The translations under genes were made by a program, and so were the position numbers. Of a stretch of DNA of 64,000 nucleotides, positions 3,117-50,501 are shown piece by piece. The DNA lies in assembly GCA_944358115.1 (NCBI GenBank), contig CALVQH010000001.1, positions 5,263-69,262 of the forward strand, in the 5' to 3' direction. Below the pieces are notes generated by a model. It did not search any database. It saw only the letters and a program-made list of their open reading frames with translations, and was not told where the DNA came from. Source of the stretch: an uncultured Bacilli bacterium (GTDB lineage Bacteria > Bacillota_I > Bacilli_A > RF39 > UBA660). The stretch's first letter is position 1. The number at the start of each line of letters is the position of its first letter.

Positions 3117-3265
3117 GTGTTTGGTTTTATTTTTGTAAAAATTGTTTAAATAGTCAAAAAAAGAATTGATTTTTATTTCATAATAAGGTATATTAATAAC
3201 ATAGGATAGTTAAAATTTACCTATCATTATTTTTTATAATATTAAGAGCCTATTTATGTATTAAG

Positions 3266-3295
3266 AAGTTTTGGCAAGTTTTGTCGAAACGAATG
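3266..3295. promoter_or_regulatory. Conserved operator-like element AAGTTTTGgCAAgtTTTGTCGAA upstream of paralog 1
   Basis: A near-identical 23-bp element (AAGTTTTGaCAAcgTTTGTCGAA) lies upstream of paralog 2 at 14084-14113. It contains the imperfect inverted repeat GACAA-n3-TTGTC. Confidence 0.5.
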
Positions 3296-3345
3296 AAAAA
3301 TAATTTTATTTATTATAAAATAGTAGAAAGTAAAGGAAGAAAAAT

Positions 3346-5052
3346 ATGAAAAAAAGCACAAAAATAACCCTTTTAGTAGCAGGAGCACTAGTAATATTAT
3401 TGGGAATGATTGGAATAACCTATGCCTTTTTCTCAACAGGAGGAAGTCAAGAACAAGCAAATACTTTTACAAGTGGATGCTTAAATATAAGCTTAACAGA
3501 TGCCTCATCATCAATTAGTTTATCTAATATCTATCCAATTACAGATGTTGAAGGGTTAGAGGGAACTAGTTATGATTTTACAATTACTAATACTTGTAAT
3601 ACTTCTACTAATTATTCCATTAATCTAGAAAGTTTAAATCAAGTATCCAATTCATTAAGTGCAGATTATATTAAAGTAGCACTATCTAGTGATACAGTAG
3701 GAAATGTCATATCAATATTAAGTGACAATACAAGTGTAACACCAGAAATAGATGGAGCTTATGAATCATATAATTTATATACGGGAACACTAGGAGCAAG
3801 TGAAGCAAAAACATATCACTTAAAACTATGGTTAGATTATGATGCAACGGTTGAGCAAGCAGCAAATAAAGTATACTCATCTAAAATAAATGTAATAGCT
3901 AATTCAGAAACACAAGTAGTAGATACATTAGAAGCAACATTTGAACTAAATGATACAACTTTAACATCAAATCTAACAAGTAATGTAACAAGCGCAACAT
4001 ATTGCACTACAACTGATAACATCTGTACACCGGGTACAAGCGCTATAATAGAAGATAATAAATATACAGTTGAAATGGGAAGCAATGCAAATATGCAAAT
4101 GATTTGTACTAAGTTAAATGAAACGAGTAAGTTAATATGTGGAAGCCCTATAAAAATAACAGCAAAAGATATAATATTAGCAGATAACGAAGTTAATGGT
4201 GTGCCAAATTTTAATCAAATTGCAACAGCGGATGAAGGAATGTATACTACACTTGACAATTTAGGAACCAGCTATTACTTTAGAGGGGCAGTCACCAATA
4301 ACTATGTTCAATTTGCAGGATACTACTGGAGAATTATTCGAATTAATGGAGATGACTCAATTCGATTAATTTATGACGGAACAAGTGCTCATGCAAATGG
4401 CGAATCATCCGCGGATAGACAAATTCAAACAAGCGTATATAGTACAAGTCTAAATTATAATTATAGTTACTATGTAGGCTTTACCTATCAAGCAAATACT
4501 CAAAGGCCTTTAGTTCAAAATGAGGAAATATCAAGCACAATTAAAAATGTGTTAGATAATTGGTATACAGAACACTTACAAGAATTTGACAATATTATAA
4601 TAAGTAAACCTGGATTTTGTAATGATAGAAATTCGTATTCTGATGAAAACGGAATAACATCATCATGGGTAGCAAATGGAGCTGTGATTTATTATTCAGC
4701 ATACATAAGAGTAGTAACAAATAAGACTCCTACGTTGCAATGCAATAATAATAGTGATTGGTATATAACTAATATAGGATTAATTACGGCAGACGAAGTA
4801 CTGATGGCTGGTGGTGGATATTTAACTAATAATGATAGTTATTATTTGTATACCGGACAGAATTATTGGACTATGTCTCCTTATAATTTTAATGGCAACA
4901 ATGCTGTTATGTTTGCAGTAGATTTGTATGGGATTCTTGGCTGGGATTATGTCTCTATCGAATGGGGCGTCCGTCCTGTCATCAATCTTTCAGCAGATGT
5001 CACTATTTCCTCGGGAGATGGAACCATAAATAATCCTTATGTAATTGCATAA
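3346..5052 (+). CDS. Secreted protein with SipW-type/TasA-camelysin-like N-terminus and the shared paralog C-terminal domain (paralog 1)
   Basis: MKK...TYAFFSTGG signal peptide plus NTFTSGCLNISL (TasA/camelysin-like). Ser/Thr-rich linker. The C-terminus YYWRIIRINGDDSIRLIYDG...ITADEV...YWTMSPY...GVRPVINL...GDGTINNPYVIA matches the 14166 and 59740 proteins. Confidence 0.7.
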   Translation: MKKSTKITLLVAGALVILLGMIGITYAFFSTGGSQEQANTFTSGCLNISLTDASSSISLSNIYPITDVEGLEGTSYDFTITNTCNTSTNYSINLESLNQVSNSLSADYIKVALSSDTVGNVISILSDNTSVTPEIDGAYESYNLYTGTLGASEAKTYHLKLWLDYDATVEQAANKVYSSKINVIANSETQVVDTLEATFELNDTTLTSNLTSNVTSATYCTTTDNICTPGTSAIIEDNKYTVEMGSNANMQMICTKLNETSKLICGSPIKITAKDIILADNEVNGVPNFNQIATADEGMYTTLDNLGTSYYFRGAVTNNYVQFAGYYWRIIRINGDDSIRLIYDGTSAHANGESSADRQIQTSVYSTSLNYNYSYYVGFTYQANTQRPLVQNEEISSTIKNVLDNWYTEHLQEFDNIIISKPGFCNDRNSYSDENGITSSWVANGAVIYYSAYIRVVTNKTPTLQCNNNSDWYITNIGLITADEVLMAGGGYLTNNDSYYLYTGQNYWTMSPYNFNGNNAVMFAVDLYGILGWDYVSIEWGVRPVINLSADVTISSGDGTINNPYVIA

Positions 5053-5177: not shown

Positions 5178-5873
5178 ATGTTTTTAAGTTTGCTTAGCAT
5201 AATAAAAGATATGCTTTTATTTACCGGGAGTTATTCAAATGGCGTATTTCCAGAACCATTAAAACCAGAAGAAGAAGAAATCGTGATTACAAGAATGTTA
5301 AATGGCGATAAAGAAGCTAGGAATACGTTAATTGAACATAACCTAAGATTAGTCGCTCATATTGTCAAAAAGTTTGATAATTCCTCTTATGATACCGATG
5401 ATTTAATTAGTATTGGTACCATTGGCTTAATTAAAGGAATTGATTCATTTAAAAAAAGCAAAGCAACCAAGATTACAACTTATGCTGCTAGATGTATAGA
5501 AAATGAAATCTTAATGCATTTTCGCAGTAATAAAAAAATAGCAAATACCGTAAGCCTAAATGACTCTATTGGTTTTGACAAAGATGGTGGGGAAGTAAGT
5601 TTAATGGAAATTATCAAAGATGATTCCAAAGATATCGCTGATACTCTTCATTTAAAAGATAATATTGAGTTATTAAAAAAATACTTTCATGTACTAACTG
5701 ATAGAGAAAAAGAGATCCTAATCAAAAGATATGGCTTACTAAATGAAGATGAACACACTCAAAAAGAAATAGCTCGTGATTTAAAAATATCTCGAAGTTA
5801 TGTATCAAGAATTGAAAAAAGAGCATTATCGAAAGTTTTAAAAGAATTTATGAAACAAGATCAAGATTTATAA
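5178..5873 (+). CDS. sigK: Sporulation sigma factor, SigK-like pro-sigma (SigE/SigK family)
   Basis: The pro-sequence ...SYSNGVFPEPLKPEEEE resembles B. subtilis pro-SigK (SYVKNNAFPQPLSSSEE). NLRLVAHIVKKF and DLISIGTIGLIK region-2 motifs. A region-4 HTH is present. Confidence 0.65.
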   Translation: MFLSLLSIIKDMLLFTGSYSNGVFPEPLKPEEEEIVITRMLNGDKEARNTLIEHNLRLVAHIVKKFDNSSYDTDDLISIGTIGLIKGIDSFKKSKATKITTYAARCIENEILMHFRSNKKIANTVSLNDSIGFDKDGGEVSLMEIIKDDSKDIADTLHLKDNIELLKKYFHVLTDREKEILIKRYGLLNEDEHTQKEIARDLKISRSYVSRIEKRALSKVLKEFMKQDQDL

Positions 5874-8017: not shown

Positions 8018-8093
8018 GGTCTGTTGGTGAAGCGGTTAACACATTGCCCTCTCAAGGCAACATTCATGGGTTCAAATCCCATACAGATCACCA
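8018..8093 (+). tRNA. tRNA-Glu (anticodon CUC)
   Basis: Cloverleaf with 7-bp acceptor stem and CCA end. It aligns position-by-position with Bacillus tRNA-Glu. The anticodon loop is CTCTCAA. Confidence 0.75.
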
Positions 8094-13434: not shown

Positions 13435-13890
13435 TTAATTTTTAACCAAATCTAGTTTTATCTCTTCATCGATTTTACCAGTAACAAAATCAGCTGAAAC
13501 ATGAAAGTACTTACAAAAGCCTATAATATAACTCGTAAGAGCAAGATTAATGCCATTTTCATATTTACTAATAGAAGAACGAGTAATATTAAGAATTTTC
13601 GCAAGCTCATCTTGAGTCAAATCATTTTCGCGTCTAATTCTTTTAATTCTTTTAGCAAGTAATTTAGAATCAATTCTTTTACTATTTTCATATTCCCAAA
13701 CTTCAGTAAAACCTAAAACATAATCTAGTGATACATGAAAGATATTACAAAACTTATCTAATTGTCTTAATGGAATTAAATCATTTTCTCTTTCCCACAT
13801 GTTATAACTGTTCCTAGATACTCCTAGAATTTCCGCAACTTCTCTTTGCTTTAAATCAGCATATATTCTTACCTTTTTTAGTCTCATCAT
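13435..13890 (-). CDS. Tandem-HTH XRE-family transcriptional regulator (two HTH_XRE domains)
   Basis: Two repeats of 'L...R...L.Q.ELA..L..S...YS..E.G'. Divergent from paralog 2. Paralogous to 50613-51056 and 59106-59543. Confidence 0.8.
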   Translation of the reverse strand: MMRLKKVRIYADLKQREVAEILGVSRNSYNMWERENDLIPLRQLDKFCNIFHVSLDYVLGFTEVWEYENSKRIDSKLLAKRIKRIRRENDLTQDELAKILNITRSSISKYENGINLALTSYIIGFCKYFHVSADFVTGKIDEEIKLDLVKN

Positions 13891-14083
13891 CTTAAAACTC
13901 TCTTTCTTATGTAATCATTTTTACACAAAATATTAAAACAGAGAACTACACATAGTGATAAGAAATAAAAAGTAAATAAATATAACAAAATATAAAAATA
14001 AAATTACAAAATAATTGACAATCACTCAATAATAATGTATAGTAAAAATATATCATAGAAAAACATAGTAGAAAGAAATTGAA

Positions 14084-14113
14084 AAGTTTTGACAACGTTT
14101 GTCGAATACCATG
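14084..14113. promoter_or_regulatory. Conserved operator-like element upstream of paralog 2
   Basis: AAGTTTTGaCAAcgTTTGTCGAA matches the 3266-3295 element in 21 of 23 positions. A TTGACA-17-TATAGT promoter lies about 70 bp upstream. Confidence 0.5.
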
Positions 14114-14165
14114 TATTATCTATTAAAATGTGATATGATGCCAAAAGGAAAGGAAGAGAAGAAGA

Positions 14166-15380
14166 ATGGAGTTCGAAACTTTAAAACAAAGTCATTTAAA
14201 AAGAAATATTATGATAGGAGTAGTAGCAGTACTAATTATTAGTGCCGTAGTACTAAATTTTACCAGAGCAAAATACCGAGTGACACAATCAATACCTTTA
14301 GTCAATGGTACAATCAATTATAGTTTAGCAGACCTAAATATTGTAGCACTATACATTGATGGAGTAGCAGCTGACGAATTAGATAGTTCTAAAAATTATA
14401 CACTAGATACCGATCAAAGTACATGCACCTACAAAGATGGTAGCACAATTCAAAATTTAACATTAAATTATGATAGTGATACCAAAACATTTACGATTGC
14501 TCCTTATACAACCAAGGGAACAAAGTGTACATTGTATTTTGATGAACAAAAGATACCAGCAGTAGATGTAATAGAAGAAGCTTATAACACTAATCCAAAC
14601 ATGTTAGCATATGATGATTATGGAAATTTAAGATACATAGGAGCAGACCCAAATAATTATGTTTTATTTAATAATGAATTATGGAGGATCATAGGAGTAT
14701 TTAGTGAAGATACACATGGAGTAAGTGGAGAAAAATTAGTAAAAATAATTAGAAGTGAATCAATAGGAAGTATAGAATGGGATAGTGGTAACGTAAATGA
14801 TTGGTCCACAGCCAGTTTACAAACAACATTGAATGGGGATTATTTAAATGGAAGTGGAAGCTATGCTAGTACTGGGATAAAAAGTGATACAGCAAGAAAT
14901 ATGATTGAAACGGTAACATGGAAACTTGGTGGAAGAGCAAGTTATACAAGTTCCAGTAATGGACTAGCAAGTCATTTTTATGGATATGAAAGAGGAACAA
15001 CAGTATATAGTGGAAGACCAACAACATGGAGTGGAAAAGTAGCATTAATGTATCCAAGTGATTATGGATATGCCACAAGTGGAGGTTCAACAACAAATAG
15101 AGAAGCATGCCTAGCCAAAGAGTTGTACAACTGGGATTCGTCAAGTTTTAGCGATTGCAAGAACAATGACTGGCTTTATGATAGCAGTACATATCAATGG
15201 ACACTTACGCCGGGCTCGTCGCGTTCGGACTACGTCTTCCTTGTGGGCAAGCCTGGTTTTGTGGGCCGCAGCAATGCGAGCTACTCGAGCGAGGTCCGTC
15301 CTTCGGTATATCTAACATCGAATGTGAAAATCTCAGGAGGTGATGGAACTAGTAATAGTCCATACACTTTGGAGGTGTGA
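14166..15380 (+). CDS. Signal-anchored surface protein, paralog 2 of the GVRP-domain family
   Basis: N-terminal TM followed by TRAKYRVTQSIPLVNGTINYSLADLNIVA, nearly identical to the 59740 protein. The C-terminus LWRIIGVF...GVRPSVYL...GGDGTSNSPYTLEV is shared. The last ~200 nt are unusually GC-rich. Confidence 0.7.
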   Translation: MEFETLKQSHLKRNIMIGVVAVLIISAVVLNFTRAKYRVTQSIPLVNGTINYSLADLNIVALYIDGVAADELDSSKNYTLDTDQSTCTYKDGSTIQNLTLNYDSDTKTFTIAPYTTKGTKCTLYFDEQKIPAVDVIEEAYNTNPNMLAYDDYGNLRYIGADPNNYVLFNNELWRIIGVFSEDTHGVSGEKLVKIIRSESIGSIEWDSGNVNDWSTASLQTTLNGDYLNGSGSYASTGIKSDTARNMIETVTWKLGGRASYTSSSNGLASHFYGYERGTTVYSGRPTTWSGKVALMYPSDYGYATSGGSTTNREACLAKELYNWDSSSFSDCKNNDWLYDSSTYQWTLTPGSSRSDYVFLVGKPGFVGRSNASYSSEVRPSVYLTSNVKISGGDGTSNSPYTLEV

Positions 15381-15997: not shown

Positions 15998-16357
15998 ATG
16001 AAATTTGTAACAATTAGAAAAATGGGTTTATTTTATCAAGTATTTGATGATGATGCTTTCATATTGCATTATTTATTAGATTATAAAGTAATAGATAGGA
16101 AAGCAGGCTTTCCCAATAATGCAATTAATAAAGTAATAAATATTTTGGAAGCAAAAAAAATTAATTATAAGATTATTGGCGAGAATATAACAAAAGATTT
16201 TAAAGATTTAAATAAATATGCTTTTTATTTAGCAAAATCTAAAGACAAAATAGTTGTTCAAAATTTAATTCATAATATTGAATTAAAATTGGAAGAAAAA
16301 GATGAAAGCGAGTTGCTTCAAATATTAGAAGGAATTGAAAAACTGGTGAATGAATAA
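15998..16357 (+). CDS. Small ORF with MutS domain-I-like signature (119 aa)
   Basis: IRKMGLFYQVFDDDAFILHYLL...AGFPNNA...KKINYKIIGEN parallels MutS [15 protein letters not shown]...GVPYHS...KGYKVAICEQ. Confidence 0.4.
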   Translation: MKFVTIRKMGLFYQVFDDDAFILHYLLDYKVIDRKAGFPNNAINKVINILEAKKINYKIIGENITKDFKDLNKYAFYLAKSKDKIVVQNLIHNIELKLEEKDESELLQILEGIEKLVNE

Positions 16358-16461: not shown

Positions 16462-16490
16462 TTGACGAACGTATGTATTTACAGTATAAT
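16462..16490 (+). promoter_or_regulatory. Sigma-70-type promoter for tnpB
   Basis: TTGACG, 17-nt spacer, TATAAT; about 20 nt upstream of the GGGGTGA RBS. Confidence 0.6.
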
Positions 16491-16509
16491 ACTATTATCA
16501 GGGGTGATT

Positions 16510-17652
16510 ATGATTATGAAAATACACAGGGCATATCAATTTCGTTTGTATCCAACAAAAGAACAAGAAGTAATTATTCGTAAAACATTTAGATGTACGA
16601 GATTTGTTTATAATTATTGTTTAGATTTAAAAAAGAAAAATAATTATTTAACTAAGTTTGACTTAATGAAAGAATTACCAAAATTAAAAAAAGAATATCC
16701 CTTTTTAAAAGAAATAGATAGTTGTTCCTTACAAAATGCCATTACAGATTTAATGGTAGGTTTTAGATTGTTTGAAAAAGGCCATGGAGGATATCCTAAG
16801 TTTAAGAAAAAAGGAGTAAAAGAAAGTTTCCGTACTAGTTTTATTACTAGTAGTTATAAAGGTACAATTTATGAAAATATAAAACTAGATTTAAAAAGAA
16901 GAATCATTGAATTACCAAAAATAAAAGAGATTAAAATAAGAGGATATCGTAATTTAGATAAGATTAGTGGAAGAATACTAAATGCCACGATAAGAGAAGT
17001 AGGCACTAGATTTTATGTGTCTGTATGTGTAGAAGAAGAAATCAAGTTACCAGAAAGAAAAAATAATCAAGCAGTAGGAATCGATATAGGAGTAAAGAAC
17101 TTAGTTGTAACAAGTAATAAAGAATATTATGGGAATCCCCGATATTTAGAAAAATATGAAAAAAAGATAAAAAGATTCCAACAAGAATTATCAAGAAAAA
17201 TAAAGGGAAGTAAAAACTATATTAAGTGTAAGAAAAAATTAGAAGAAGTATATCGAAAGCTAAAAAATGCAAGAAAAAAGACAGTAGAAGAAATAGTAGC
17301 CAAAATAATAGCCTTACATGATATTATTATTGCCGAGAATCTCCAAGTAAAGAAAATGTTAGAGCATAAAAATAACCACAAACATTTACGAAAAGAAATC
17401 ACAAATGCTACATTTAGTGAAATCATAAGAGTACTCAAATATAAGTGCAACTGGTTAAATAAGATATTTATTCAAGTAAATCCCTATTATGCAAGTAGTC
17501 AGATTTGTAGTGGATGTGGAAATAAAGAAAGTATTATGAAAGATATAAGAGTAAGAGAATATAAATGTAGTAAATGTGGTTTAGAAATAGAGAGAGATTA
17601 CAATGCAAGTTTGAATATATTAAAAGAAGGATTAAGATGTTACAATAATTAA
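16510..17652 (+). CDS. tnpB: TnpB (IS605 OrfB family RNA-guided endonuclease)
   Basis: N-terminal MKIHRAYQFRLYPTKEQ (OrfB_IS605 N-terminus). RuvC-like core. C-terminal zinc finger CSGCG...CSKCG. RBS GGGGTGA before ATG 16510. Confidence 0.85.
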   Translation: MIMKIHRAYQFRLYPTKEQEVIIRKTFRCTRFVYNYCLDLKKKNNYLTKFDLMKELPKLKKEYPFLKEIDSCSLQNAITDLMVGFRLFEKGHGGYPKFKKKGVKESFRTSFITSSYKGTIYENIKLDLKRRIIELPKIKEIKIRGYRNLDKISGRILNATIREVGTRFYVSVCVEEEIKLPERKNNQAVGIDIGVKNLVVTSNKEYYGNPRYLEKYEKKIKRFQQELSRKIKGSKNYIKCKKKLEEVYRKLKNARKKTVEEIVAKIIALHDIIIAENLQVKKMLEHKNNHKHLRKEITNATFSEIIRVLKYKCNWLNKIFIQVNPYYASSQICSGCGNKESIMKDIRVREYKCSKCGLEIERDYNASLNILKEGLRCYNN

Positions 17653-32621: not shown

Positions 32622-32890
32622 TGGAAAAAGAAGATATTATTACACTTGAAGATAATACCGAGTATATGGTGCTAGATACAGCTCTTTTAAATCAAGAAAA
32701 ATATTTATATTGTGTGCGAATAGATGAAGAAGAAAAACCAACAAGTGAATATAAATATTTTAAAGAGATTAATGAAAATAATGAATTATTCACGGAAGAA
32801 GTAGAAGATGAAGTCGTGATTGAAACCATTACTTCTATGTTCGCCGCTGATTATTTAAATAGTGTAACAGACGAAGAACAAGACGTTTAA
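32621..32890 (+). CDS. DUF1292-like small acidic protein
   Basis: MEKEDIITLEDNTEYMVLDT...YLYCVRIDEE pattern. Confidence 0.45.
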   Translation: MEKEDIITLEDNTEYMVLDTALLNQEKYLYCVRIDEEEKPTSEYKYFKEINENNELFTEEVEDEVVIETITSMFAADYLNSVTDEEQDV

Positions 32891-32894
32891 AAGG

Positions 32895-33080
32895 AAAACT
32901 AAAAAAGAGACTTGATGGTTGGTGAAAAATCAAGAGTAGAACTTTTAAAAAATCACTTGGGAGTCGAATATTTGATAAGTAAAATATTACGTAACTTTGC
33001 GTTAAAAAGAAAAAGAGAAAAATAAAGGTGGTACCGCGCATAAAACTTGCGCCCTTTGGTGCTACCTTTTTTGTGTAAAA
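32895..33080 (+). promoter_or_regulatory. T-box riboswitch leader controlling ileS
   Basis: Conserved T-box sequence AAAGGTGGTACCGCG at 33024-33038 overlapping a terminator (gcgccctttggtgctacc plus T6). Candidate AUC specifier at 32929-32931. Confidence 0.75.
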
Positions 33081-33093
33081 AGAAGGAGGAAAT

Positions 33094-36000
33094 ATGAAAA
33101 ATTTTAAAGATTTAGACAAACGTAACGTAAATTTAGTAGAAAAGGATATAAGGGATTACTGGGATAAAATAGATATCCTAAAAAGAAGTATTGAAACGAG
33201 AGATAAAGAAAATAACTTTGTTTTCTATGATGGACCAGCAACCGCAAATGGTATGCCAGGACTTCATCATATGGTAGCAAAATTCTTAAAAGATACATTC
33301 TGCAAATATGAAACAATGAAAGGAAAAAGAGTAATAAGAAAAATTGGTTGGGATACCCATGGCTTACCCGTGGAAGTTCAAGTTGAAAAGAAACTTGGGT
33401 TTACTGGCAAAGGTGACATTGAAAAATACGGAATTAAAGAATTTAATCAAAAATGCCGCGAAACTGTTTGGGAAAATGAAGATGCTTTCTCTAGACTAAC
33501 CAAAGAAATGGGACAATTCATTGATTTAGAGCATCCCTACATCACGTATAATAATGACTATATCGAAACGGAGTGGTGGATCTTAAAGAAATTCTTTGAT
33601 GAAGGATTATTCTATGAAGGTCTAAAAATTTTACCATATTGTCCTAGATGTGGTACCGGTCTTGCCTCACATGAAGTTCAACAAGGCTATAAAGAAGTAG
33701 AGGTAGATACAGTCATCGTTCCTTTTAAAAGAGTAGATAAAGATGAATATTTCTTAGTTTGGACAACTACTCCATGGACCTTAATTGCTAATGTTGCTTT
33801 ATGTGTTCATCCCGATGAAGATTATGTACTAGTAGAATCAAAAGGTTATAAATTTATTTTAGCTGCTAAATTAGCATCAACTGTTTTAGGCGAAGAATAC
33901 ACCGTTTTAGATACATTTAAAGGTAGTACCCTAGAAAATGTTGGTTATGAGCAATTGATACCAAGCTTGTCAGTTAATAAAAAAGCATTCTATGTAACGT
34001 GTGATACGTATGTAACCATGGAAGATGGAACGGGTATTGTTCACATTGCTCCTGCTTTTGGTGCGGATGATTATGAAGTAGGAAGACGTTATAATTTGCC
34101 AATTTTAAATCCAGTTGGTGATGATGGCTGTTATACGGAAGGATTATGGAAGGGAATGTTTGTCTTTGATGCGGATAAAGAAGTCATTAAATATTTAAAA
34201 GAAAATGATAAATTATTCAAAAAAATTCACATGACTCATAACTATCCTCATTGTTGGCGTTGTAATACTCCACTCATCTATTATTCAAAACCAAGTTATT
34301 ATTTAGAGATTACTAAAATAAAGGATAAAATTGTAGAAAATAATAAAAAGGTAAATTGGTACCCAGATTATGTCGGTGAAAAAAGATTTGGCAACTGGCT
34401 AGAAAACTTAAATGACTGGGCTATTTCTAGAAGTCGTTATTGGGGAACTCCACTACCACTTTGGAGATGTGAATGTGGCCATATGGATATGATTGGTTCC
34501 CGCACAGAATTAGTTGAAAAAGCGATTGAAGAAATTGATGAATCCATTGATTTACACCGTCCATATGTTGATGATGTTCATATCAAGTGTCCAAAATGTG
34601 GTAAAGTAATGAGTCGTACGCCAGAAGTAATTGACTGTTGGTTCGATAGTGGAGCAATGCCTTTTGCTCAATATCATTATCCATTTGAAAACATGGATAT
34701 CTTTGAATCTCAATTTCCAGCTGACTTCATTTGTGAAGGAATTGATCAAACCAGAGGTTGGTTCTATTCTTTAATTGTTATTGGTACTTTTGTAAAAGGT
34801 GTAAGTCCTTATAAAAATGTATTAGTAAACGAATTATTACTAGATAAACATGGTAAAAAAATGCATAAATCAAAAGGCAATGCAATTGAACCATTTAGCT
34901 TGATGGAGCGTTTCGGTGTAGATACTATTCGTTGGTACTTACCTTATACTTCTCCTGTATGGACCCCAATCAAGTTTGATGAAGATGGCTTAAAAGAAGT
35001 ATATTCAAAATTCTTTAATCCCCTAAGAAATACTTATAATTTCTTTCAATTATATGCCAATACCGATCATATTGATATTGATGAATGTAAAGTAGCTTAT
35101 GAAGATTTAGAAGAAATTGATAAATGGTTATTATCAAAATATCATAATCTATTAAAATATGTAATCGAATCTTATGATGAATATGATTTAAATAAAGTAG
35201 TAAAGAGTATTACTAACTTTGTATCAGAGGATCTATCAAACTGGTATATTAGAAGAAATAGAAGTCGCTATTGGGGTAGTGAGCTTAATAATTCCAAAAA
35301 AGCCGTTTATAGTACAACTTATGAAGTTTTAGTGGGTGTATGTAAAATGATCGCTCCCGTAATTCCATATTTAAGCGAAGAATTATATCGTAATCTAACG
35401 GGAGAAGAATCTGTTCATCTAGCATATTTCCCTAAATACAATACAGAATATATTGATCTAAAACTAGAAGAAAAAATGGATACAGTAAGAACCCTAATTA
35501 GTATTGGCCGAAATGTTCGTGAAGAAGCGAAAATTAAGGTCAGAGAACCACTTTCAGAATGTTTATTAAACGCTGATTTAAAAGACTTAATCTCTGATTT
35601 AAAAGATTTAATCTTAGAAGAATTAAATGTCAAAGAAGTAGTCTTTGCCAGTGATTTAAATAAATACATGAGTTTCTTTGTAAAGCCAAACTTTAAAGTA
35701 GCTGGACCTGTATTTGGATCTAACATTCAAGTATTTAGTAATATTCTAGCCAATTTAACCGAAGAAGAAATTACAACTTTAAATAAAGGAGAAACCATTC
35801 ATATCACGATAGATGATACAGAATATGAAATTGATTCAAGCTATACCGATATTCGTATTAATGCCAAAGAAGGATACAATGTAGGCATGGAAAATAATTT
35901 ATTTGTTATTTTAAATACTGTACGTAGTGAAGAATTAATTTTAGAAGGAATTGCTCGTGAATTTGTATCTAAAGTTCAAAATATAAGAAAGAAAGAAGAT

Positions 36001-36186
36001 TACAATGTAGCAGATCGTATTACTATCGCTTATCATGGTGATGAGGTAGTTAAAAAATCAGTAGAAATGTTTGAAGATTATATCAAGAGTGAAACATTAA
36101 CTACGAAAATTACTTATCAAGAAGAAATAAAAGATGATCTAGATCTAAATGGTCATCAAGCTGGAATTACGACAAAGAGAGTTTAG
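33094..36186 (+). CDS. ileS: Isoleucine--tRNA ligase (long, type-2-like form)
   Basis: HIGH-region PGLHHMVAKF, WAISRSRYWGTPLP, KMHKSKGN (KMSKS), C-terminal Zn-ribbon CPKCG. 1030 aa. Confidence 0.85.
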   Translation: MKNFKDLDKRNVNLVEKDIRDYWDKIDILKRSIETRDKENNFVFYDGPATANGMPGLHHMVAKFLKDTFCKYETMKGKRVIRKIGWDTHGLPVEVQVEKKLGFTGKGDIEKYGIKEFNQKCRETVWENEDAFSRLTKEMGQFIDLEHPYITYNNDYIETEWWILKKFFDEGLFYEGLKILPYCPRCGTGLASHEVQQGYKEVEVDTVIVPFKRVDKDEYFLVWTTTPWTLIANVALCVHPDEDYVLVESKGYKFILAAKLASTVLGEEYTVLDTFKGSTLENVGYEQLIPSLSVNKKAFYVTCDTYVTMEDGTGIVHIAPAFGADDYEVGRRYNLPILNPVGDDGCYTEGLWKGMFVFDADKEVIKYLKENDKLFKKIHMTHNYPHCWRCNTPLIYYSKPSYYLEITKIKDKIVENNKKVNWYPDYVGEKRFGNWLENLNDWAISRSRYWGTPLPLWRCECGHMDMIGSRTELVEKAIEEIDESIDLHRPYVDDVHIKCPKCGKVMSRTPEVIDCWFDSGAMPFAQYHYPFENMDIFESQFPADFICEGIDQTRGWFYSLIVIGTFVKGVSPYKNVLVNELLLDKHGKKMHKSKGNAIEPFSLMERFGVDTIRWYLPYTSPVWTPIKFDEDGLKEVYSKFFNPLRNTYNFFQLYANTDHIDIDECKVAYEDLEEIDKWLLSKYHNLLKYVIESYDEYDLNKVVKSITNFVSEDLSNWYIRRNRSRYWGSELNNSKKAVYSTTYEVLVGVCKMIAPVIPYLSEELYRNLTGEESVHLAYFPKYNTEYIDLKLEEKMDTVRTLISIGRNVREEAKIKVREPLSECLLNADLKDLISDLKDLILEELNVKEVVFASDLNKYMSFFVKPNFKVAGPVFGSNIQVFSNILANLTEEEITTLNKGETIHITIDDTEYEIDSSYTDIRINAKEGYNVGMENNLFVILNTVRSEELILEGIAREFVSKVQNIRKKEDYNVADRITIAYHGDEVVKKSVEMFEDYIKSETLTTKITYQEEIKDDLDLNGHQAGITTKRV

Positions 36187-37905: not shown

Positions 37906-40900
37906 ATGAAAGAATTAAAACATCTTCGTAAACAAAATGAAAAACAATTCTTAAATGATGATGGGTCTATTTCCCTATATCTCTATAACAATGATATTCA
38001 TTATTTAAAAAATGGTGAATATCTAGAAATTGATAATACACTCGTTGAGGAAGAAAATAACATCATTAATAAAGAAAATAATTTTCATACACGTTTTACG
38101 AAAGATACAAAAACAAATTTATTAGTAGATATTACCAAAGATAATTATTATCTAAAAATTTATTTAATGAAATCAAAAAATAATGCAATGAATATGAAGA
38201 AAAATAAAAACAATATAAAACTAGAAAATATCTTAGAAGATATAGATATTGATTATCATGTAATATCGACACAATTAAAGGAAGCTATTATTTTAAAAAA
38301 TAAAAATAATATTCCTACCTCTTTATCTTTTAAAGTAGATACTAACCTAGATTTAGAAGTGGAAGAAAAGGGAAGTGTTCTAGCAAAAGATAAAGAAAAA
38401 CCAATTTTTGTAATTGCAGCACCTTTTATGAAAGATAATAAAGGAACATACAATTACAAGATAAAATACGATTTAAGTTTAAAAGATGATACGTATATCT
38501 TAAACTTAAATTTAGATCAAGAATGGTTAAATGAAGCAGAGTTCCCTGTAGTAATTGATCCAACAATTGTAAATCCGGACGAAGAAGATCCAGAAAATGT
38601 ATATGATGCATATATAAGCTCGAGTCTTCCTGATATGAATATGAATACTCACGAGGAACTATACGTTGGTTCGAATTCAACTAGAACAACAAGAACATTA
38701 TTAAAGTTTAAACTTCCAACAATTGGTACAGGATATGATATTGTAAATGCCACAGCGTATCTAAATAGCGAATTTATGTCTTTAAATGGTAAAACAATTA
38801 ACGTTCATGAGATAACTAACGATTGGAATGAAGCAACAGTTACTTGGAATAGTATCTATGATAAGTATAATTCAAAAATCGAAGAGTATTTTTATGAACA
38901 AAGAACGGTACAAAGTGAGAAAATATTCCCGTTCAATATTACCAATTTAGTCAAAAAATGGTATGCGGGTAATCCTAATTATGGCCTCATGTTAAAGTTA
39001 AATGATGAAACGCCAAATGATGACAATGATAGTTACATCTTTTATTCTAAAACTTATGATGGTTTAAATGAAACAGGATTAAGGCCTTATTTAGCCATTA
39101 CTTATCGTAATCAGAATGGCCTAGAGGATTATATGACTTATCAAACACAAGAATACACAGATGGTGCAAGCTATATCAATAATTTAACTGGTAATCTAAC
39201 CACTACATTCAATTTAAATGAAACAATAGGGGGTAAATATCCAATTGGTTTAAGTCTAGTTTATAATACGAATGATATGGTTTTAAATAATAACTATGGT
39301 TATCAATCTGGATACAAATTAAATTTACATGAAACAATAAAAGAAGTAACAATAGACCTAAATAATTACTTAGAATATATAGATGCTGATGGTACAATCC
39401 ATTACTTTCGAAATGAATTAGATGAAGAAGGAGAAAAAATTGATAATAAGTACATAGATGAAGATGGATTAGGCCTAAACGCTACAAAAGAAACAAATAA
39501 AGTAATAATAGAAGATATAAATAGTAATAAATATGAATTTTCTTTAAATAATAATATTTATTATTTAACCAAATTAACAAATACAAATAATGATAGTGTA
39601 ACAATAACATATGATACAAATAACCGAATCAATAAAGTAACAGATGCCAATAATTCTAGCATCAATATTACATATAATACAAATAATATGATTATTACCA
39701 GTGATAGCACAACAACAACAGTCAATTATACAAATAATAAAGTAACTAGTATAATAAGTAAAAATGGTACCACCAATTTTACTTATAATAATTATGGCTT
39801 AATTAGTAAAATTACCGATGTAAATGGATTAAGTAAAGCTTTTAATTATTATGATGTAAGTCCATATAAAATAAAAAAAGTAATAGAATATGGCTTAAAT
39901 GATGAAGAAGGAGCTTCTCTAGAATTTGAATACGGCTTTTTAGTTACAAGAGTAAAAGATAATAAGGATCGATATAATACCTATATTTTTAACGAACAAG
40001 GAAATACAATTGGTTTTACGAATTTAGATGAAGAAGCAAATTTAAATAATGCTTATGGAAAAGGTGTAGTTTATGAAAATACCACAATTTATAAAGAAAA
40101 TAATGGTACCTATTTTGAAGATATAAATCGAGCAGGAAATAAATTGAAAAATGAAATATTAGCAGTTAAATACACGAAAAATTTAATTAAAAATAGTAGT
40201 TTTGAAGATGCAGAAACATTCTTTATTGGAACTAGAACAACGGAAGAAAAAAGAACTGGAAGTTATAGTTTAAAATTTTCTGATTATTGCTATTTTGAAG
40301 ATCCATCTCTTCCGCCGCGAGGAAAAAATTATACTTTTAGTGGATACTTTAAAAATGATAAAACCTTAACCATGAGCTTAGAAAGAAGAGGATTAAATAA
40401 AACGGATACTTTAGATATAATATCTATTCCTCCAAATGAAGATTTTACAAAATATAGCGTGACGGGTGATTATCCTTCTTCTGAAGAAGAAGGCGGATAT
40501 ATTTCAGTAACGATAACTTCAAATGAAAAAGGAACAGCCTATTTAGATGATGTACAACTTGAAGAAGGAGAAATTGCTAATTATTATAATATGTTAGAAA
40601 ATGGTGATTTCCATGATGGATTAACTGGATGGAATGCAAGTGCCTATGATCGTGAAGGAAATAGTATTAATAATGTAGCAAGTGTAGTAACATTAGAAAA
40701 TGGCGTAAAAGCTTTAAAAATAGCTTCTAATCCTGATTTAGATATTGCTGTTTCCACTACTTTAAAAGTAAATGGAATTGGTGATTTATCGGAAGATAGA
40801 ATAGGAGACTTATATAATTTATCATTCTGGTATAAAAACGAAGGATTACCAAAGGGCGGAACAGGAATGGAATATAGTAATTCTGTATTATTAAGCTTTT

Positions 40901-43900
40901 ATTATACCAACGTACCTGAAGGTGAAGGGTACGGAATTGATCCTATTGGTTTAACTTCTCATAGTAATGAATGGCAATATTTCTCAGCTCCATTCCCAAC
41001 AGATAGTTTATATAATTATGATACCATCGCTTTAACCATATTATCAAATTATAATGCCAATAACTTATATATTACCAATATTTCTTTATCAAAAGATATA
41101 GAACAAAATTATAATTATCATAATAGTGAAACTGGTAATTTAGAGGGAATTAGAAACATGGATAGTTCTCATGCTAGTTTCACTTATGATGAAAATAATC
41201 AATTAACAAGTATGTTTAATCCATTAGGTAATAACTTTAAATTTGAATACGATAATGTGGTAACAGATCGTATATTAAAAGGAATATCACCATCAGGAAT
41301 ATCGAATGAAATTTTATATGATGAATTTGGTAATCCTAAAAAAACAATCATCAATAATGTCAATCCAGATCAAGATATTATGGATGGTAAAACTTATTAT
41401 ATTCGTTTAAAAGGTTCACAAGAATATTGGGATAGTAATTTTATAACAAATGAGATTTTATTAAAAGAAGATAATTGTAGTCATGATACTTACACTCTTT
41501 TAAAAGAGGGTGAATACTTCCGAATAAAAAGTGGGAATGAGTATGTAACACTCATAAATGATTCAATTGGTTTAACCAAGTTAATGACTGATGATTCTTT
41601 GTTCAGATTTTTCCTCCAAAACAACAATAGTTACATCATCATTCCCAAAACCAAAGATAATACATTACTAGAACACAATCTAGCAAATGTAAATGGTAAA
41701 ATTTCTTTAAAAACAAGTGATACCAAAGAATATGAAGAGCAATTTTATTTTGAAGATATTGATACGCAATTGTTTATTGAATCAAAAGCGGAATATACTG
41801 AAGATGGAAAGTTTGTTACCCAAACAATCGATTCTTTAGGCAAAGTTACATCTTATGATATTAATACCACCAATGGTTTAACTAATAGTATTACTGATGC
41901 AAACAACATAACAACTTACTATACTTATAATACTAAAGATCAAATAACCAAAGTAAAGAAAGAAAACAAAGAAGTAAACTATGATTATAATAGCAATAAT
42001 TTACTATCAAAAATAACTTCAAATAACAAAGAATATAACTTTACTTATGATAATTTCTTAAATTCCAAACAAATAAAAATAGGAGACAATATTACTCTTA
42101 TTACTAATAATTATGAAAATAATAATGGGAATCTTCTATCAAGTGTTTATGGTAATGGTGATACATTTAGTTACACTTATGATGAACTTGATAGAATTAA
42201 AACAATGACAAATGATGCTAGTACCTATACATATCATTATGATAATTTGGGCAATTTAGCTAAAATAACAAGTATAAGTGAAAATTATAATTATTATTAT
42301 GACTTATCTAATAGGATTAGCAAATACCTAGTCAATAACTTTAATATTGAGTATGACTATGATTCGAATAATAATATACTTAAGAAAGAGTATACATTAA
42401 ATGATAAAGAAACAGTTACTTTTGAATATAACACCGATGATGCAATAACCAAAGTAACATTCGATAATAATAATTTAAATTATGCTTATGATTATCTAGG
42501 AAGATTAACTAGTAAAGATATAAATGGCAATCAAAAGATAGAGTATACATACATAACAAATGGTAATAAAACTTCTACTGTATTAAAATCCATGAAAATA
42601 AATAATGATTTATATGAATATTATTATGATCATCTATATAATATCACAGATATTTATTTAAATAATAAATTAATTAATCATTATGAGTATGATAATTTTA
42701 ATGAACTAATTAAAGAAGATAGCTATAGTTTAAACAAAACAATAAGATATACTTATGATAATGCTGGAAACATATTAAAGAAACAAGAATACGAATTAGA
42801 TACTTATAATTTATTACATACAGATACTTATGAATATAATAATGTTAATTGGGAAGGCCAATTGACAAAATATAACAATGAATCAATTACTTATGATGCT
42901 ATAGGTAATCCATTAACCATAGGAAATAAAACACTAACTTGGGTAAATGGTAGACAACTAGCAAGTTATACCGATGAAAGTCTAAATATTTCTTATACTT
43001 ATAATAAAGATGGAATAAGAACAGAGAAAGTAATAAATAATACAAAAACTAATTACTTTACAGAAAATAATAAGATAATATTTGAACAAACAGGAAATAA
43101 TATGGTATACTATATACGAGATGAGGAAGGAAGTTTAATAGGATTTAAATATAATAATACACTTTATTATTATATAAAAAACATGCAAGAAGATATCATA
43201 GGAATAACGGATAGTAATTATAACTTAGTATGCAGTTATGAATATGATTCATGGGGAAAACTAATATCCATTAAAGATAATAATGGAAACATTATTACTA
43301 ATACATCTCATATAGGTTATATCAATCCATTTAGATATAGGTCATACTATTATGATAATGAAACAAAGTTGTATTATCTAAATAGTAGATACTATAATCC
43401 AGAATGGGGTAGATTTATTAATGCAGATAGATTTATAAGCACAGATACAGGTATAATTGGCTTCAATATGTATGCTTATTGTAATAATGAGCCAATATCA
43501 AGAAAAGATTATAGTGGAAGTTTCTTCGGACTAGTTTTTGGAATGTTTGCAGTTACAGCTGGAATTATTCTTGGTGCAGAGATTATTGATAATAATAATA
43601 AAAAACAAAATAAAAAAGCTAAAAAAGAAATAGAAGAAGTGCAAAAAAAACACAATGTTTGTCCAATAGAAGAAAATAAAAATTTTAAAGAAACTTTAAA
43701 AACTAATGCAAAAAAAGTTCAAAATGATACTCAAAATATGAATTATATAGAAAGACTAAACTATTTAAGAGAAAATGCAAATGATGGTCAAAAATTCGAT
43801 TTAAAACTATTTACAAAAGATACAATATTTTATGACGGTATGTATATGGAACCACAAGATATCGGTAACTATCACTTTGGGTACATAGGTAGAGCTGCAG

Positions 43901-44070: not shown

Positions 44071-44620
44071 AAAGAAAATTGTTATTGCTGGTATTCTAAT
44101 TGTATTAATAGCGTTATTAATAATTCCAATAATAGTTATTATGATACTTTTTGTTGATGGCCTTAAAGAGAATGCTATTGATAAAAAGGCTATGGAATAT
44201 GAAAGTGAAGAAAAGCGCTTAGAATACTTTTTAGAAAATGAAGAATACCTTAATAAATTAGCAAACTATTTTATAGAATATCCAGAACTTGATAGAATAG
44301 GAAAAAACATTTGGTGTTCTAATGCCGATGAACCAACATATGAATTGAATGATATAACAATTTGTACTTATAAAAAATTAGAAAATCTACCAATTAAAGA
44401 TATTGTAGAAATATATAAAAAAACAAACCTTTCAATTGTTGGTAGAAGGAATGACTGTATTGCATTTTATTTATACATAACAACATATCATGATGTTTGC
44501 TATAATTATTATTTCACTTCTTCAAAAAGTGAATATATAAAATATGATTATGGGATAATTGAAGAAAATGAAATAAATGAGAATTGGAGTAGTATGTTTT
44601 CAAATATTCCTTATGATTAA
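44045..44620 (+). CDS. Putative cognate immunity protein (N-terminal TM, 191 aa)
   Basis: Overlaps the last 26 nt of the RHS gene, the typical toxin-immunity arrangement. TM helix IVIAGILIVLIALLIIPIIVIMILF. Confidence 0.5.
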   Translation: MIKNIKINRKKIVIAGILIVLIALLIIPIIVIMILFVDGLKENAIDKKAMEYESEEKRLEYFLENEEYLNKLANYFIEYPELDRIGKNIWCSNADEPTYELNDITICTYKKLENLPIKDIVEIYKKTNLSIVGRRNDCIAFYLYITTYHDVCYNYYFTSSKSEYIKYDYGIIEENEINENWSSMFSNIPYD

Positions 44621-44838
44621 AAACAAGCAATATTAGAACTAATGTAATCAGTTTACACTAGTTCTTTTTATATATTTGAATAAACAGATAATAATATGGC
44701 ATAAGAATAAAATGCGTTAGCGTATGATGAAAATTCGCAAACATGCCTTTTGATTAAAGAATAAAAAAATTCAATATCATAGTACAATCGCCAACTCGTG
44801 TGTTCTCTTTTTTTCATACAATAAATAGGAGGAAGAAT

Positions 44839-49412: not shown

Positions 49413-49523
49413 TAATTTTAATTCTTAAAATGAAAAAATATCTCGTTTTCTAAAGCACCTCCCTTAATTCGACAAATTATTAAAAAAGAATATGATATAA
49501 TTAGCACTTCAGGAGGGATTAAA

Positions 49524-50339: not shown

Positions 50340-50416
50340 TGGTCGGGAAGACAGGATTTGAACCTGCGACCCCTTGGTCCCAAACCAAGTGCACTACCAA
50401 ATTGTGCTACTTCCCG
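50340..50416 (-). tRNA. tRNA-Pro (anticodon UGG)
   Basis: CGGGAAGTAGCACAAT...anticodon loop TTTGGGA...CCA, read on the minus strand. Confidence 0.85.
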
Positions 50417-50424
50417 ATAATTAA

Positions 50425-50501
50425 TGGTGCGCCCTAAGGGAGTCGAACCCCTAACCTTTAGATCCGTAGTCTAACGCTCTATCCAATTGAGCTAAGGGCG
50501 C
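50425..50501 (-). tRNA. tRNA-Arg (anticodon ACG)
   Basis: GCGCCCTTAGCTCAATTGGATAGAGCGTTAGACTACGGATCTAAAGG...CCA closely matches Bacillus tRNA-Arg(ACG). Confidence 0.85.

What the first reader, a model, noticed from the sequence alone, without database searches (positions are those of the whole stretch)
3266..3295. Conserved 23-bp operator-like element shared by the promoters of paralogs 1 and 2
AAGTTTTGgCAAgtTTTGTCGAA (3266-3288) and AAGTTTTGaCAAcgTTTGTCGAA (14084-14106) differ at only 2 positions although the surrounding intergenic DNA is unrelated. Both lie roughly 60-80 bp upstream of their paralog's start codon. The core GACAA-n3-TTGTC is an imperfect inverted repeat, as expected for an HTH-dimer operator. 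Paralog 3's upstream region instead carries a different inverted repeat (tagactg...cagtcta) around its TTGACT-17-TATAAT promoter.
Basis: seen in the sequence. Interest (0 to 1): 0.55.

Follow-up and report, generated by a model that had tools for sequence, protein, structure and literature searches.

The report
Spo0A binding site upstream of secreted-protein genes

Summary
They differ at 3 positions, not 2, and are far beyond chance.

The right half, TTTGTCGAA, contains the exact Spo0A "0A box" core TGTCGAA. An imperfect box (TGGCAAG / TGACAAC) lies 3 bp upstream, the known layout for a Spo0A~P dimer.

Across about 90 non-redundant sites in related low-GC gut Bacilli MAGs ("Mycoplasma sp. CAG:776" group) the geometry is fixed: boxes, 4 bp, a weak -35-like wTGnAw, 17 bp, then (TGn)TAnnnT.

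The same composite lies upstream of:
- many members of this secreted-protein family;
- the spoIIAA-like/sigF-like operon (7 motif-ascertained and 5 of 5 protein-ascertained cases);
- spo0A itself, in two MAGs;
- unrelated genes (miaB, gpsB-like, Rpn-family).

The window encodes SigK and Ger(x)B/C, so its organism is probably a spore former.

The inverted repeat is not conserved. The motif does not track adjacent Xre/HTH genes (5 of 10 motif loci against 9 of 15 non-motif loci).

The best reading is Spo0A~P activation of a downstream sigma-A-type promoter. This is a new member of a known kind and of modest interest. Binding itself is inferred, not shown.

The parts
3280..3288 (+). Promoter-proximal consensus Spo0A box, site 1: TTTGTCGAA (core TGTCGAA 3282-3288)
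   Evidence: Exact match to the published 0A-box core (PMC3485338, PMC2731898). Invariant in homologous upstream regions. The 9-mer occurs 4 times in the window against 0.71 expected, and all four copies are intergenic.
3272..3278 (+). Distal imperfect box, site 1: TGGCAAG, 3 bp upstream of the consensus box (10-bp register)
   Evidence: Read. This is the same layout as the 'imperfect box with 3 mismatches separated by 3 bp' in the phi29/Nf Spo0A sites (PMC2731898). The position-frequency table shows a TTTGACAAs unit at -10..-2.
3293..3321 (+). Putative Spo0A-dependent promoter P2 of paralog 1: -35-like ATGAAA (3293-3298), 17 bp, -10 TAAAAT (3316-3321)
   Evidence: Found by the promoter scan. 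The same offsets (+5..+10 and +28..+33 after the box) carry information in 90 non-redundant sites.
3346..5052 (+). Paralog 1: 568-aa secreted or surface protein with a TasA/SipW-type N-terminal signal and a DUF6273-like C-terminal region
   Evidence: some homologues carry PF19789 and PF12389.
14098..14106 (+). Promoter-proximal consensus Spo0A box, site 2: TTTGTCGAA (core 14100-14106)
   Evidence: The promoter stretch printed (12 nt before the motif to 40 nt after it) is identical in L102, L109 and L128, although those contigs are only 82-89% identical to the window overall.
14090..14096 (+). Distal imperfect box, site 2: TGACAAC, 3 bp upstream of the consensus box
14111..14139 (+). Putative Spo0A-dependent promoter P2 of paralog 2: -35-like ATGTAT (14111-14116), 17-bp spacer containing TG at 14131-14132, -10 TATGAT (14134-14139)
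   Evidence: Read. The geometry is conserved across sites.
14166..15380 (+). Paralog 2 (404 aa, N-terminal membrane anchor MEFETLK...)
3166..3194 (+). Conserved upstream sigma-A-type promoter P1 of the paralog-1 region: TTGATT-17-TATATT. The boxes lie about +82..+88 from its predicted start.
14015..14043 (+). Conserved upstream promoter P1 of the paralog-2 region: TTGACA-17-TATAGT, with an ATTGA-N7-TCAAT palindrome across the -35 and spacer. This palindrome is the more likely operator of the local HTH regulator.
13435..13890 (-). Divergent tandem-HTH (2 x HTH_3) regulator next to paralog 2. It is not tied to the 23-bp motif.
49468..49476 (-). Further exact TTTGTCGAA box in reverse orientation. 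It overlaps a -35-like TCGACA lying 21 bp from TATAAT, upstream of ORF 49524-50261.
61727..61735 (-). Further exact TTTGTCGAA box in reverse orientation. It overlaps a -35-like TCGACA lying 21 bp from TGcTAGGAT, upstream of ORF 61800-62099.
5178..5873 (+). sigK (sporulation sigma factor), evidence that the organism is a spore former
   Evidence: TIGR02846 at 303.4 bits against a cutoff of 298.65. Ger(x)B-type 62091-63131 and Ger(x)C 63132-63962 have strong hits that fall below the curated cutoffs.

Best explanation
The 23-bp element is a composite binding site for phosphorylated Spo0A. A perfect 0A box (TTTGTCGAA) lies promoter-proximal, and a degenerate box lies 3 bp upstream in the same orientation. 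In many relatives a third unit sits one more helical turn upstream.

The site ends 4 bp before a weak -35-like hexamer (ATGAAA / ATGTAT), which is followed after 17 bp by a good -10 (an extended -10 at site 2). The core box therefore spans about -46 to -40.

Most likely mechanism (inferred): at the onset of stationary phase or sporulation, a Spo0A~P dimer or oligomer binds cooperatively on one face of the DNA. It contacts the sigma-A holoenzyme at the defective -35 and switches on this promoter, as at spoIIG and spoIIE in B. subtilis.

The boxes also lie about 50-90 bp downstream of a second, conserved, strong sigma-A promoter (P1). Spo0A~P may therefore also impede P1 transcripts. This is speculative.

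Shown here: sequence identity to the 0A consensus, conservation, geometry, and co-occurrence with hallmark Spo0A targets. Inferred: actual binding, and the sign of regulation.
For: 1. The core TGTCGAA is exact at both sites. It equals the published 0A box, whose G2, C4 and G5 are contacted by the protein (PMC3485338).
2. An imperfect second box 3 bp away matches the described Spo0A dimer sites (PMC2731898).
3. TTTGTCGAA occurs 4 times in the window against 0.71 expected, and all copies are intergenic. In 500 kb of related loci, 8 of 11 extra copies fall in the 13% of DNA that is non-coding.
4. The proximal box is identical in 15 upstream regions of family genes found by protein homology; one further homolog (L001) carries TTCGCCGAA. 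The distal half varies.
Seventy-two are low-GC loci (73 matches), mostly of this gut Bacilli clade, with several unlinked sites per MAG.
6. Genes downstream include a SpoIIAA-like STAS protein followed by a SigF-like sigma (with SpoVAC and SpoVAD in L129), in 7 MAGs.
7. The less biased test: 5 of 5 spoIIAA-like orthologues chosen by protein similarity carry TTTGTCGAA 54-56 nt before the ATG, with the same spacing to -35 and -10.
8. Bona fide spo0A genes (TIGR02875, 230 and 324 bits against a cutoff of 200) in L099 and L174 carry the composite motif about 95-170 bp upstream. Their conserved C-terminal segment SRVERAIRH(A/S)IEV is kept.
9. The position-frequency table of 90 non-redundant sites shows information at unconstrained positions exactly where a -35 (wTGnA), a TG and a TAnnnT -10 should lie.
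10. The window encodes SigK and has strong but sub-cutoff matches to Ger(x)B/C.
Against: - No binding or expression data exist, and spo0A was not seen in this window or in an assembly of the same species. The two spo0A loci come from related MAGs.
- The distal half (GTTTTGACAA) is more conserved in its T-run than in the G-N-C core. It also reads as a reverse-oriented TGTCAAA box, so the orientation of the second protomer, or a second factor, is not settled.
- tandem-HTH regulators next to motif-bearing loci form a subfamily (more like the paralog-2 neighbour) distinct from those at motif-less loci. A local contribution therefore cannot be fully excluded.
- The SpoIIAA-like and SigF-like matches fall below NCBIfam's curated cutoffs.
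Confidence: 0.8

Rival explanations
1. Operator for the local Xre-type HTH regulators: the small HTH pair 1845-2380 or the tandem-HTH proteins. A dimer binds the inverted repeat GACAA-n3-TTGTC and represses the paralogs.
For: The inverted repeat is perfect at site 2 and is present in the clade consensus TTTTGACAAnnTTTGTC. A tandem-HTH gene is divergent from paralog 2 and from several motif-bearing homologues. Those regulators resemble one another more than they resemble the ones at motif-less loci.
Against: The left arm is not maintained (GAAAA, GATAA, AGTAA, CACTA) while the right arm is invariant. tandem-HTH adjacency is 5 of 10 with the motif and 9 of 15 without it. Paralog 1 has no adjacent tandem-HTH gene. 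The same composite lies before spoIIAA-like, spo0A, miaB, gpsB-like and Rpn genes. A better candidate operator for the local regulators is the ATTGA-N7-TCAAT palindrome in the upstream promoter P1.
Confidence: 0.06
2. A composite site in which Spo0A uses only the proximal TTTGTCGAA. The conserved distal GTTTTGACAA is recognised by another factor, or acts as a T-tract/UP-like element contacted by the RNA polymerase alpha subunit.
For: In protein-ascertained sites the most conserved distal positions are G-TTTT and AA rather than the G-N-C core. The distal unit lies at about -62 to -50, where UP elements sit.
Against: The units repeat with an exact 10-bp period and share the TTTG-N-C-R-A-A skeleton. 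In other Firmicutes hits and at spo0A (L174, L086, L123, L153) the distal unit is a plain direct TGTCAAn box 3 bp from TGTCGAA. Published Spo0A sites have just this consensus-plus-imperfect-box layout (PMC2731898).
Confidence: 0.08
3. A promoter for an alternative sigma factor (for example sigma-H, with CGAAT as -10), or a catabolite (cre-like) site.
For: Site 2 reads GTCGAAT, which resembles the sigma-H -10 RNNGAAT. TGACAACGTTTGTC loosely resembles a cre site.
Against: The base after CGAA is unconstrained (A 28, C 25, G 10, T 27 of 90). No AGGA-type -35 is present. The central CG of the cre-like reading is absent at site 1 and in most homologues. A separate -35/-10 pair at fixed distance downstream is conserved instead.
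Confidence: 0.03
4. A functionless remnant of the duplication that created the paralogs.
For: The whole regulatory region of about 190 bp is homologous between the two paralogs and their relatives.
Against: The box is invariant while flanking bases vary. It is identical in contigs only 82-89% identical overall. It also recurs before non-homologous genes.
Confidence: 0.02

Closest known systems
Spo0A '0A boxes' of Bacillus subtilis and Clostridioides difficile (abrB, spo0A, sigH, spoIIA, spoIIE, spoIIG promoters)
   Same: Identical 7-bp core TGTCGAA with T-rich 5' flank. Located within 100 bp of start codons. Found before spo0A and the spoIIA-type operon. One strong box is accompanied by weaker ones (PMC3485338).
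   Different: In B. subtilis and C. difficile the early sporulation promoters mostly carry imperfect boxes. In this clade a perfect TTTGTCGAA at a rigid distance (4 bp) from the -35 position is the rule. The regulon includes a large family of secreted TasA-signal/DUF6273 proteins.
Spo0A sites 0A-1 and 0A-3 of phages phi29 and Nf
   Same: A consensus box plus an imperfect box (up to 3 mismatches) separated by 3 bp, giving a 25-30 bp footprint (PMC2731898). Here the layout is TGGCAAG-TTT-TGTCGAA and TGACAAC-GTT-TGTCGAA.
   Different: The phage sites act in repression or anti-activation. Here the position (-46..-40 before a weak -35) suggests activation.
Spo0A-activated sigma-A promoters spoIIG and spoIIE of B. 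subtilis (own knowledge: Satola 1992, Baldus 1994, York 1992, Schyns 1997; papers not held in the library)
   Same: 0A boxes around -40 to -50 next to a poor or misplaced -35, with activation through contact with sigma-A region 4.
   Different: Exact box positions in spoIIG and spoIIE could not be checked here (one search failed). The window promoters keep a normal 17-bp spacer rather than the 22-bp spacer of spoIIG. The two reverse boxes at 49468 and 61727 do have a 21-bp spacing.
Palindromic operators of Xre/Cro-type HTH dimers (for example phage repressors, SinR)
   Same: A short imperfect inverted repeat close to a promoter, sometimes next to an HTH gene.
   Different: The inverted repeat is not conserved, there is no linkage to the HTH genes, and the element is used genome-wide.
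Direct-repeat boxes of response regulators such as PhoB (pho box)
   Same: Helically phased direct repeats immediately upstream of a defective -35, read by a phosphorylated response-regulator dimer.
   Different: Different protein family and sequence. This is only a functional analogy.

Membership tests
Spo0A binding site (0A box) | 7-bp core TGTCGAA (TGNCGAA) with G2, C4 and G5 intact | tested here: met
   Exact at 3282-3288 and 14100-14106. Identical in 15 protein-ascertained family upstream regions, with one variant, TTCGCCGAA in L001. Consensus taken from PMC3485338.
Spo0A binding site (0A box) | A second, often imperfect, box 3 bp away so that a Spo0A~P dimer can bind | tested here: met
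   TGGCAAG 3272-3278 and TGACAAC 14090-14096, each 3 bp from the consensus box. A 10-bp-phased unit appears in the position-frequency table. Precedent in PMC2731898. The orientation of the distal unit is formally ambiguous because G-N-C is self-complementary.
Spo0A binding site (0A box) | The organism encodes Spo0A with the conserved DNA-recognition helix | tested here: inconclusive
   There is no spo0A in the 64-kb window. The window has SigK and strong but sub-cutoff Ger(x)B/C matches. Two low-GC MAGs returned by the same motif scan (labelled Tenericutes and Anaeroplasmataceae) encode Spo0A above the NCBIfam cutoff, with SRVERAIRH(A/S)IEV. The same-species genome could not be searched.
Spo0A binding site (0A box) | The same motif lies before hallmark direct Spo0A targets (spoIIA operon, spo0A itself) | tested here: met
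   Seven motif-ascertained and 5 of 5 protein-ascertained spoIIAA-like/sigF-like operons, and two spo0A genes, all in related MAGs.
Spo0A binding site (0A box) | Over-representation in intergenic, promoter-proximal DNA | tested here: met
   All 4 window copies are intergenic, against 0.71 copies expected. Eight of 11 extra copies in clade loci fall in the 13% of DNA that is non-coding.
Spo0A binding site (0A box) | Physical binding by Spo0A~P and spo0A-dependent expression | not testable with these tools
   Needs EMSA or footprinting and genetics.
Palindromic operator of a local Xre/HTH dimer | Both arms of the inverted repeat conserved or co-varying across orthologous sites | tested here: not met
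   The left arm varies freely while the right arm is fixed.
Palindromic operator of a local Xre/HTH dimer | Genomic linkage between the site and the regulator gene | tested here: not met
   Adjacency is 5 of 10 with the motif and 9 of 15 without it. The motif also lies before many genes with no HTH neighbour.
Sigma-H promoter | -35 RNAGGAWWW and -10 RNNGAAT at 11-12 bp spacing (own knowledge of the consensus) | tested here: not met
   There is no AGGA, and the base after CGAA is unconstrained (position 9).
Known structured RNA element (Rfam) | Match to a curated covariance model | tested here: not met
   The only matches in the window are a T-box at 32865-33059 and four tRNAs.

The most novel reading that the evidence does not exclude
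In an uncultured, low-GC gut Bacilli lineage that public databases label Mycoplasma or Tenericutes, Spo0A uses an unusually rigid promoter cassette: perfect TTTGTCGAA, 4 bp, weak -35. With it, Spo0A directly switches on a large, fast-diverging family of secreted TasA-signal/DUF6273 proteins. Many of these genes also carry a second promoter with its own Xre-type operator. Surface or matrix protein repertoire would then be wired straight to the sporulation decision, rather than through a SinI/SinR/AbrB-type relay, with a Spo0A-driven switch between two promoters.
Probability: 0.35. Interest if true: 0.5.

Novelty: new member of a known kind. Interest (0 to 1): 0.3.

Why it matters
It replaces a 'private operator' idea with a regulon assignment. 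Two of the three paralogs in this window, and many relatives, are predicted direct Spo0A targets, expressed at entry into stationary phase or sporulation.

It also gives a sharp, easily scanned Spo0A motif and promoter geometry for an uncultured gut lineage that databases mislabel as Mycoplasma or Tenericutes but that clearly keeps sporulation genes. That is useful for predicting which of its surface proteins are made when it sporulates, which bears on transmission between hosts.

It adds no new regulatory principle.

Tried and rejected
- **Inverted-repeat operator:** rejected on comparative variation and on the lack of linkage to HTH genes.
- **Sigma-H promoter and cre-site readings:** rejected by the position-frequency table and by the absence of the key bases.
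- **RNA element in a long leader:** no Rfam match at either site, and the conserved features are promoter hexamers. I did no de novo RNA folding.
- **Duplication relic or repeated mobile cassette:** rejected. Only the boxes and hexamers are conserved before unrelated genes.
- **Other sporulation targets in the window:** I looked for spo0A, spoIIE and similar genes. Only sigK and gerB/gerC-type genes turned up.
- **Box positions in spoIIG:** I tried to read Schyns 1997, but the paper is not held, so that comparison rests on my own knowledge.
- **Lineage biology:** a literature search for the CAG:776 lineage gave nothing useful.
- **B. inaquosorum hit (L079):** it lies before a tkmA/ptkA-type operon. 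I did not establish whether that is a documented Spo0A target.
- **Not used:** the third homology search, structure prediction and fold search, because they would not bear on a DNA site.

Full report
**Observation.** They differ at three positions, not two. A search allowing three mismatches finds only these two copies in 64 kb, against 0.02 expected. They end 57 and 59 bp before the start codons of ORFs 3346-5052 and 14166-15380. These ORFs are mosaic paralogs. Paralog 3 (probable true start 59740) shares its N-terminus with paralog 2 and its C-terminus with paralog 1.

**Context.** The window has 29% G+C. It encodes:
- MutL, two small Xre-type HTH proteins, guanylate kinase, paralog 1, SigK and GltX;
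- further on, a tandem-HTH regulator divergent from paralog 2;
- Ger(x)B-type and Ger(x)C-type germination proteins at its right end.

So the organism is probably a spore former. Paralog 1 has a TasA/SipW-type signal, and its homologues (more than 3,800) sometimes carry DUF6273 and camelysin (Peptidase_M73) domains. The window is 95-96% identical to gut-metagenome contigs L002 and L034. It is 82-89% identical to MAGs labelled 'uncultured Mycoplasma sp.' or 'Bacilli'.

**What the motif is made of.** The right half, TTTGTCGAA, contains TGTCGAA. This is the published core of the Spo0A box, whose G2, C4 and G5 are contacted by the protein. C. difficile Spo0A recognises the same sequence (PMC3485338). 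Three base pairs upstream lies an imperfect box, TGGCAAG or TGACAAC. Spo0A~P acts as a dimer, and footprinted sites in phages phi29 and Nf consist of a consensus box plus an imperfect box (up to three mismatches) separated by 3 bp (PMC2731898). In the window the 9-mer TTTGTCGAA occurs four times against 0.71 expected. All four copies are intergenic and lie within 50-65 bp of a start codon.

**Comparative evidence from family genes.** Fifty-seven metagenome loci were found through similarity to paralog 1, and three more through exact protein look-ups. Two kinds of upstream region appear.
- One kind (15 loci with the exact box, plus L001 with a diverged copy, TTCGCCGAA) carries the motif at the same distance from the ATG. 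The proximal box is identical in those 15. The distal half reads GGCAA, GACAA, GAAAA, GATAA, AGTAA, CACTA or AACAA.
- Many copies show three units (TTTTGAnAAs) in 10-11 bp register.
- The other kind, which includes paralog 3, lacks the motif. It has TTGACT-17-TATAAT with a GACT-N3-AGTC palindrome and a hairpin-rich leader.

An alignment of motif-bearing regions shows that they also share an upstream promoter block, ATTGAyw-N17-TATAkT (3166-3194; 14015-14043).

**Geometry.** In 90 non-redundant sites the unconstrained positions carry information exactly where a sigma-A promoter would lie:
- wTGnAw at +5..+10 after the box;
- TG at +23..+24;
- TAnnnT at +28..+33;
- a ribosome-binding site about 15 nt further on.

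In the window these are ATGAAA 3293-3298 and TAAAAT 3316-3321 (also found), and ATGTAT 14111-14116 and TGaTATGAT 14131-14139. The core box therefore spans about -46 to -40 of a promoter with a poor -35. This is the position expected for an activator that contacts sigma region 4. For Spo0A at spoIIG and spoIIE this is established knowledge that I could not re-read here.

**Is it a private or a global site?** I scanned one genome from each of 185,579 species for GTTTTGNNAANNTTTGTCGAA.
- Seventy-two are low-G+C loci (73 matches), mostly from gut MAGs named Bacilli, Mycoplasma sp. (including CAG:776) or Tenericutes, often with several unlinked sites per MAG.
- Downstream genes include many family members. 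They also include a 110-aa STAS protein whose best match is SpoIIAA, followed by a SigF-like sigma factor, with SpoVAC and SpoVAD next in L129. Others are MiaB, a GpsB/DivIVA-like protein, Rpn-family proteins and an HDIG protein.
- The remaining hits include Bacillaceae and Clostridia, where the distal unit is often a plain TGTCAAn box 3 bp from TGTCGAA.

That scan was ascertained on the motif, so I ran a less biased test. I picked five spoIIAA-like orthologues by protein similarity. All five carry TTTGTCGAA 54-56 nt before the ATG, with the same N4, -35, 17 bp, -10 layout and variable distal units.

Two of the scanned loci contain spo0A itself, above the NCBIfam cutoff and with the conserved C-terminal segment SRVERAIRH(A/S)IEV. 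In both, the composite motif lies about 95-170 bp upstream, as expected for autoregulation. In 500 kb of clade loci, 8 of 11 additional TTTGTCGAA copies fall in the 13% of DNA that is non-coding. Several are extra boxes three helical turns from the composite site.

**Local regulators.** A tandem-HTH gene is adjacent to 5 of 10 motif-bearing family loci and to 9 of 15 motif-less ones, so there is no association. The regulators next to the two promoter classes do form two subfamilies. This fits recognition of class-specific palindromes in the upstream promoters: ATTGA-N7-TCAAT in the motif-bearing class and GACT-N3-AGTC in the other. I regard these palindromes, not the 23-mer, as the likely operators of the local HTH proteins. 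This is inference only.

**Mechanism proposed.** Spo0A~P binds the perfect box and, cooperatively, the weaker upstream unit or units on one face of the helix. It then activates the downstream sigma-A-type promoter of paralogs 1 and 2 at the onset of stationary phase or sporulation. The identical geometry before the spoIIAA-like operon, which must be switched on at that time, supports activation. The boxes also lie about +82 (paralog 1) and +51 (paralog 2) from the predicted start of the conserved upstream promoter. Bound Spo0A~P might therefore also obstruct that promoter, which is speculative. Binding, the sign of regulation and the presence of spo0A in this very genome remain untested.

**Alternatives.**
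- A sigma-H promoter and a cre site fail on their defining bases.
- No Rfam family matches.
- A duplication relic is excluded by conservation before unrelated genes.
- A second factor, or a UP-like role, for the distal GTTTTGACAA cannot be excluded. Its T-run is better conserved than its G-N-C core, and it also reads as a reverse TGTCAAA box.

**Verdict.** This is a real, strongly non-random element, correctly spotted. It is most likely an ordinary Spo0A site in a new lineage and before a new class of target genes: a new member of a known kind. Confidence is about 0.8 and interest is modest.

Noticed in passing
window 49440-49530 and 61700-61800: Two further exact TTTGTCGAA boxes in reverse orientation (49468-49476, 61727-61735). 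Each overlaps a -35-like TCGACA lying 21 bp from a -10 (TATAAT 49496-49501; TGcTAGGAT 61752-61760), a spoIIG-like over-long spacer. Both are preceded by RGCACCTC 6-7 bp upstream. The downstream ORFs (49524-50261, 61800-62099) have no NCBIfam match.
   Followed up: partly
window 3166-3194 and 14015-14043; L020, L032, L047 upstream regions: A conserved strong promoter block lies upstream of the motif: ACAAAAnnATTGAyw-N17-TGTATAyT, with an ATTGA-N7-TCAAT palindrome across the -35 and spacer. The palindrome is perfect in paralog-2-type loci and is a likely operator for the divergent tandem-HTH regulator.
   Followed up: partly
window 59560-59740; L003-L005, L019, L023, L031: A second class of regulatory region for the same gene family. 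It has a divergent tandem-HTH gene, TTGACT-17-TATAAT with a GACT-N3-AGTC palindrome, and a leader of about 90 nt with paired repeats (aagctagg...gcctagc, catcat...atgatg). tandem-HTH proteins fall into two subfamilies that track the two promoter classes.
   Followed up: partly
L106 915-1888; L129, L158, L176, L179-L189: In this clade the SpoIIAA-like STAS gene is followed directly by the SigF-like sigma gene. No SpoIIAB-type anti-sigma kinase gene lies between them. In several loci the operon sits right after rpsF-ssb-rpsR.
   Followed up: no
window 4075-4965 (inside paralog 1) versus L002: The flanks are 95-96% identical to L002, but the central part of paralog 1 does not align at megablast level, and the proteins are only 68% identical. 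This looks like a hypervariable cassette in a secreted protein.
   Followed up: no
window 15998-16357; L001 5935-6246: A short ORF (about 100-119 aa) with weak similarity to MutS domain I follows paralog 2 in the window and also follows the paralog-1-like gene in L001.
   Followed up: no
window 16462-17652: IS605-family TnpB/Cas12f-like ORF (OrfB_IS605 and TNB domains).
   Followed up: no
window 37906-44070 and 44045-44620: A 2054-aa RHS/YD-repeat protein with a DNRLRE domain, followed by a small ORF (a possible toxin-immunity pair). A holin (44800-45234) and an M23 peptidoglycan hydrolase (45206-45958) follow.
   Followed up: no
window 32865-33059: T-box leader upstream of ileS (33094-36186). 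tRNA genes lie at 8018-8090, 50343-50416, 50428-50501 and 52885-52958.
   Followed up: no
L094, L116, L130, L134, L171; L084/L147, L117, L155: Composite Spo0A-type sites with good promoters lie 145-370 nt upstream of miaB and other ORFs, with no ORF of at least 60 aa in between. A conserved start follows the -10 (TATAATArCGACyT). These could be long leaders or small RNAs or peptides.
   Followed up: no
L079 7245-7265 (Bacillus inaquosorum); L066/L173 (Geobacillus): The same 21-bp pattern occurs before a tkmA/ptkA/ptpZ-type tyrosine-kinase operon in B. inaquosorum and before dnaG in two Geobacillus species. These may be genuine Spo0A sites in cultured Bacillaceae.
   Followed up: partly
L019 about 1516, L025 about 3, L060 about 31 (minus strand): TTTGTCGAA is embedded in a hairpin, AAAGCGTCGAttTTTGTCGAACGCTTT, followed by a T-run. 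This is probably an intrinsic terminator that contains the 9-mer by chance.
   Followed up: no
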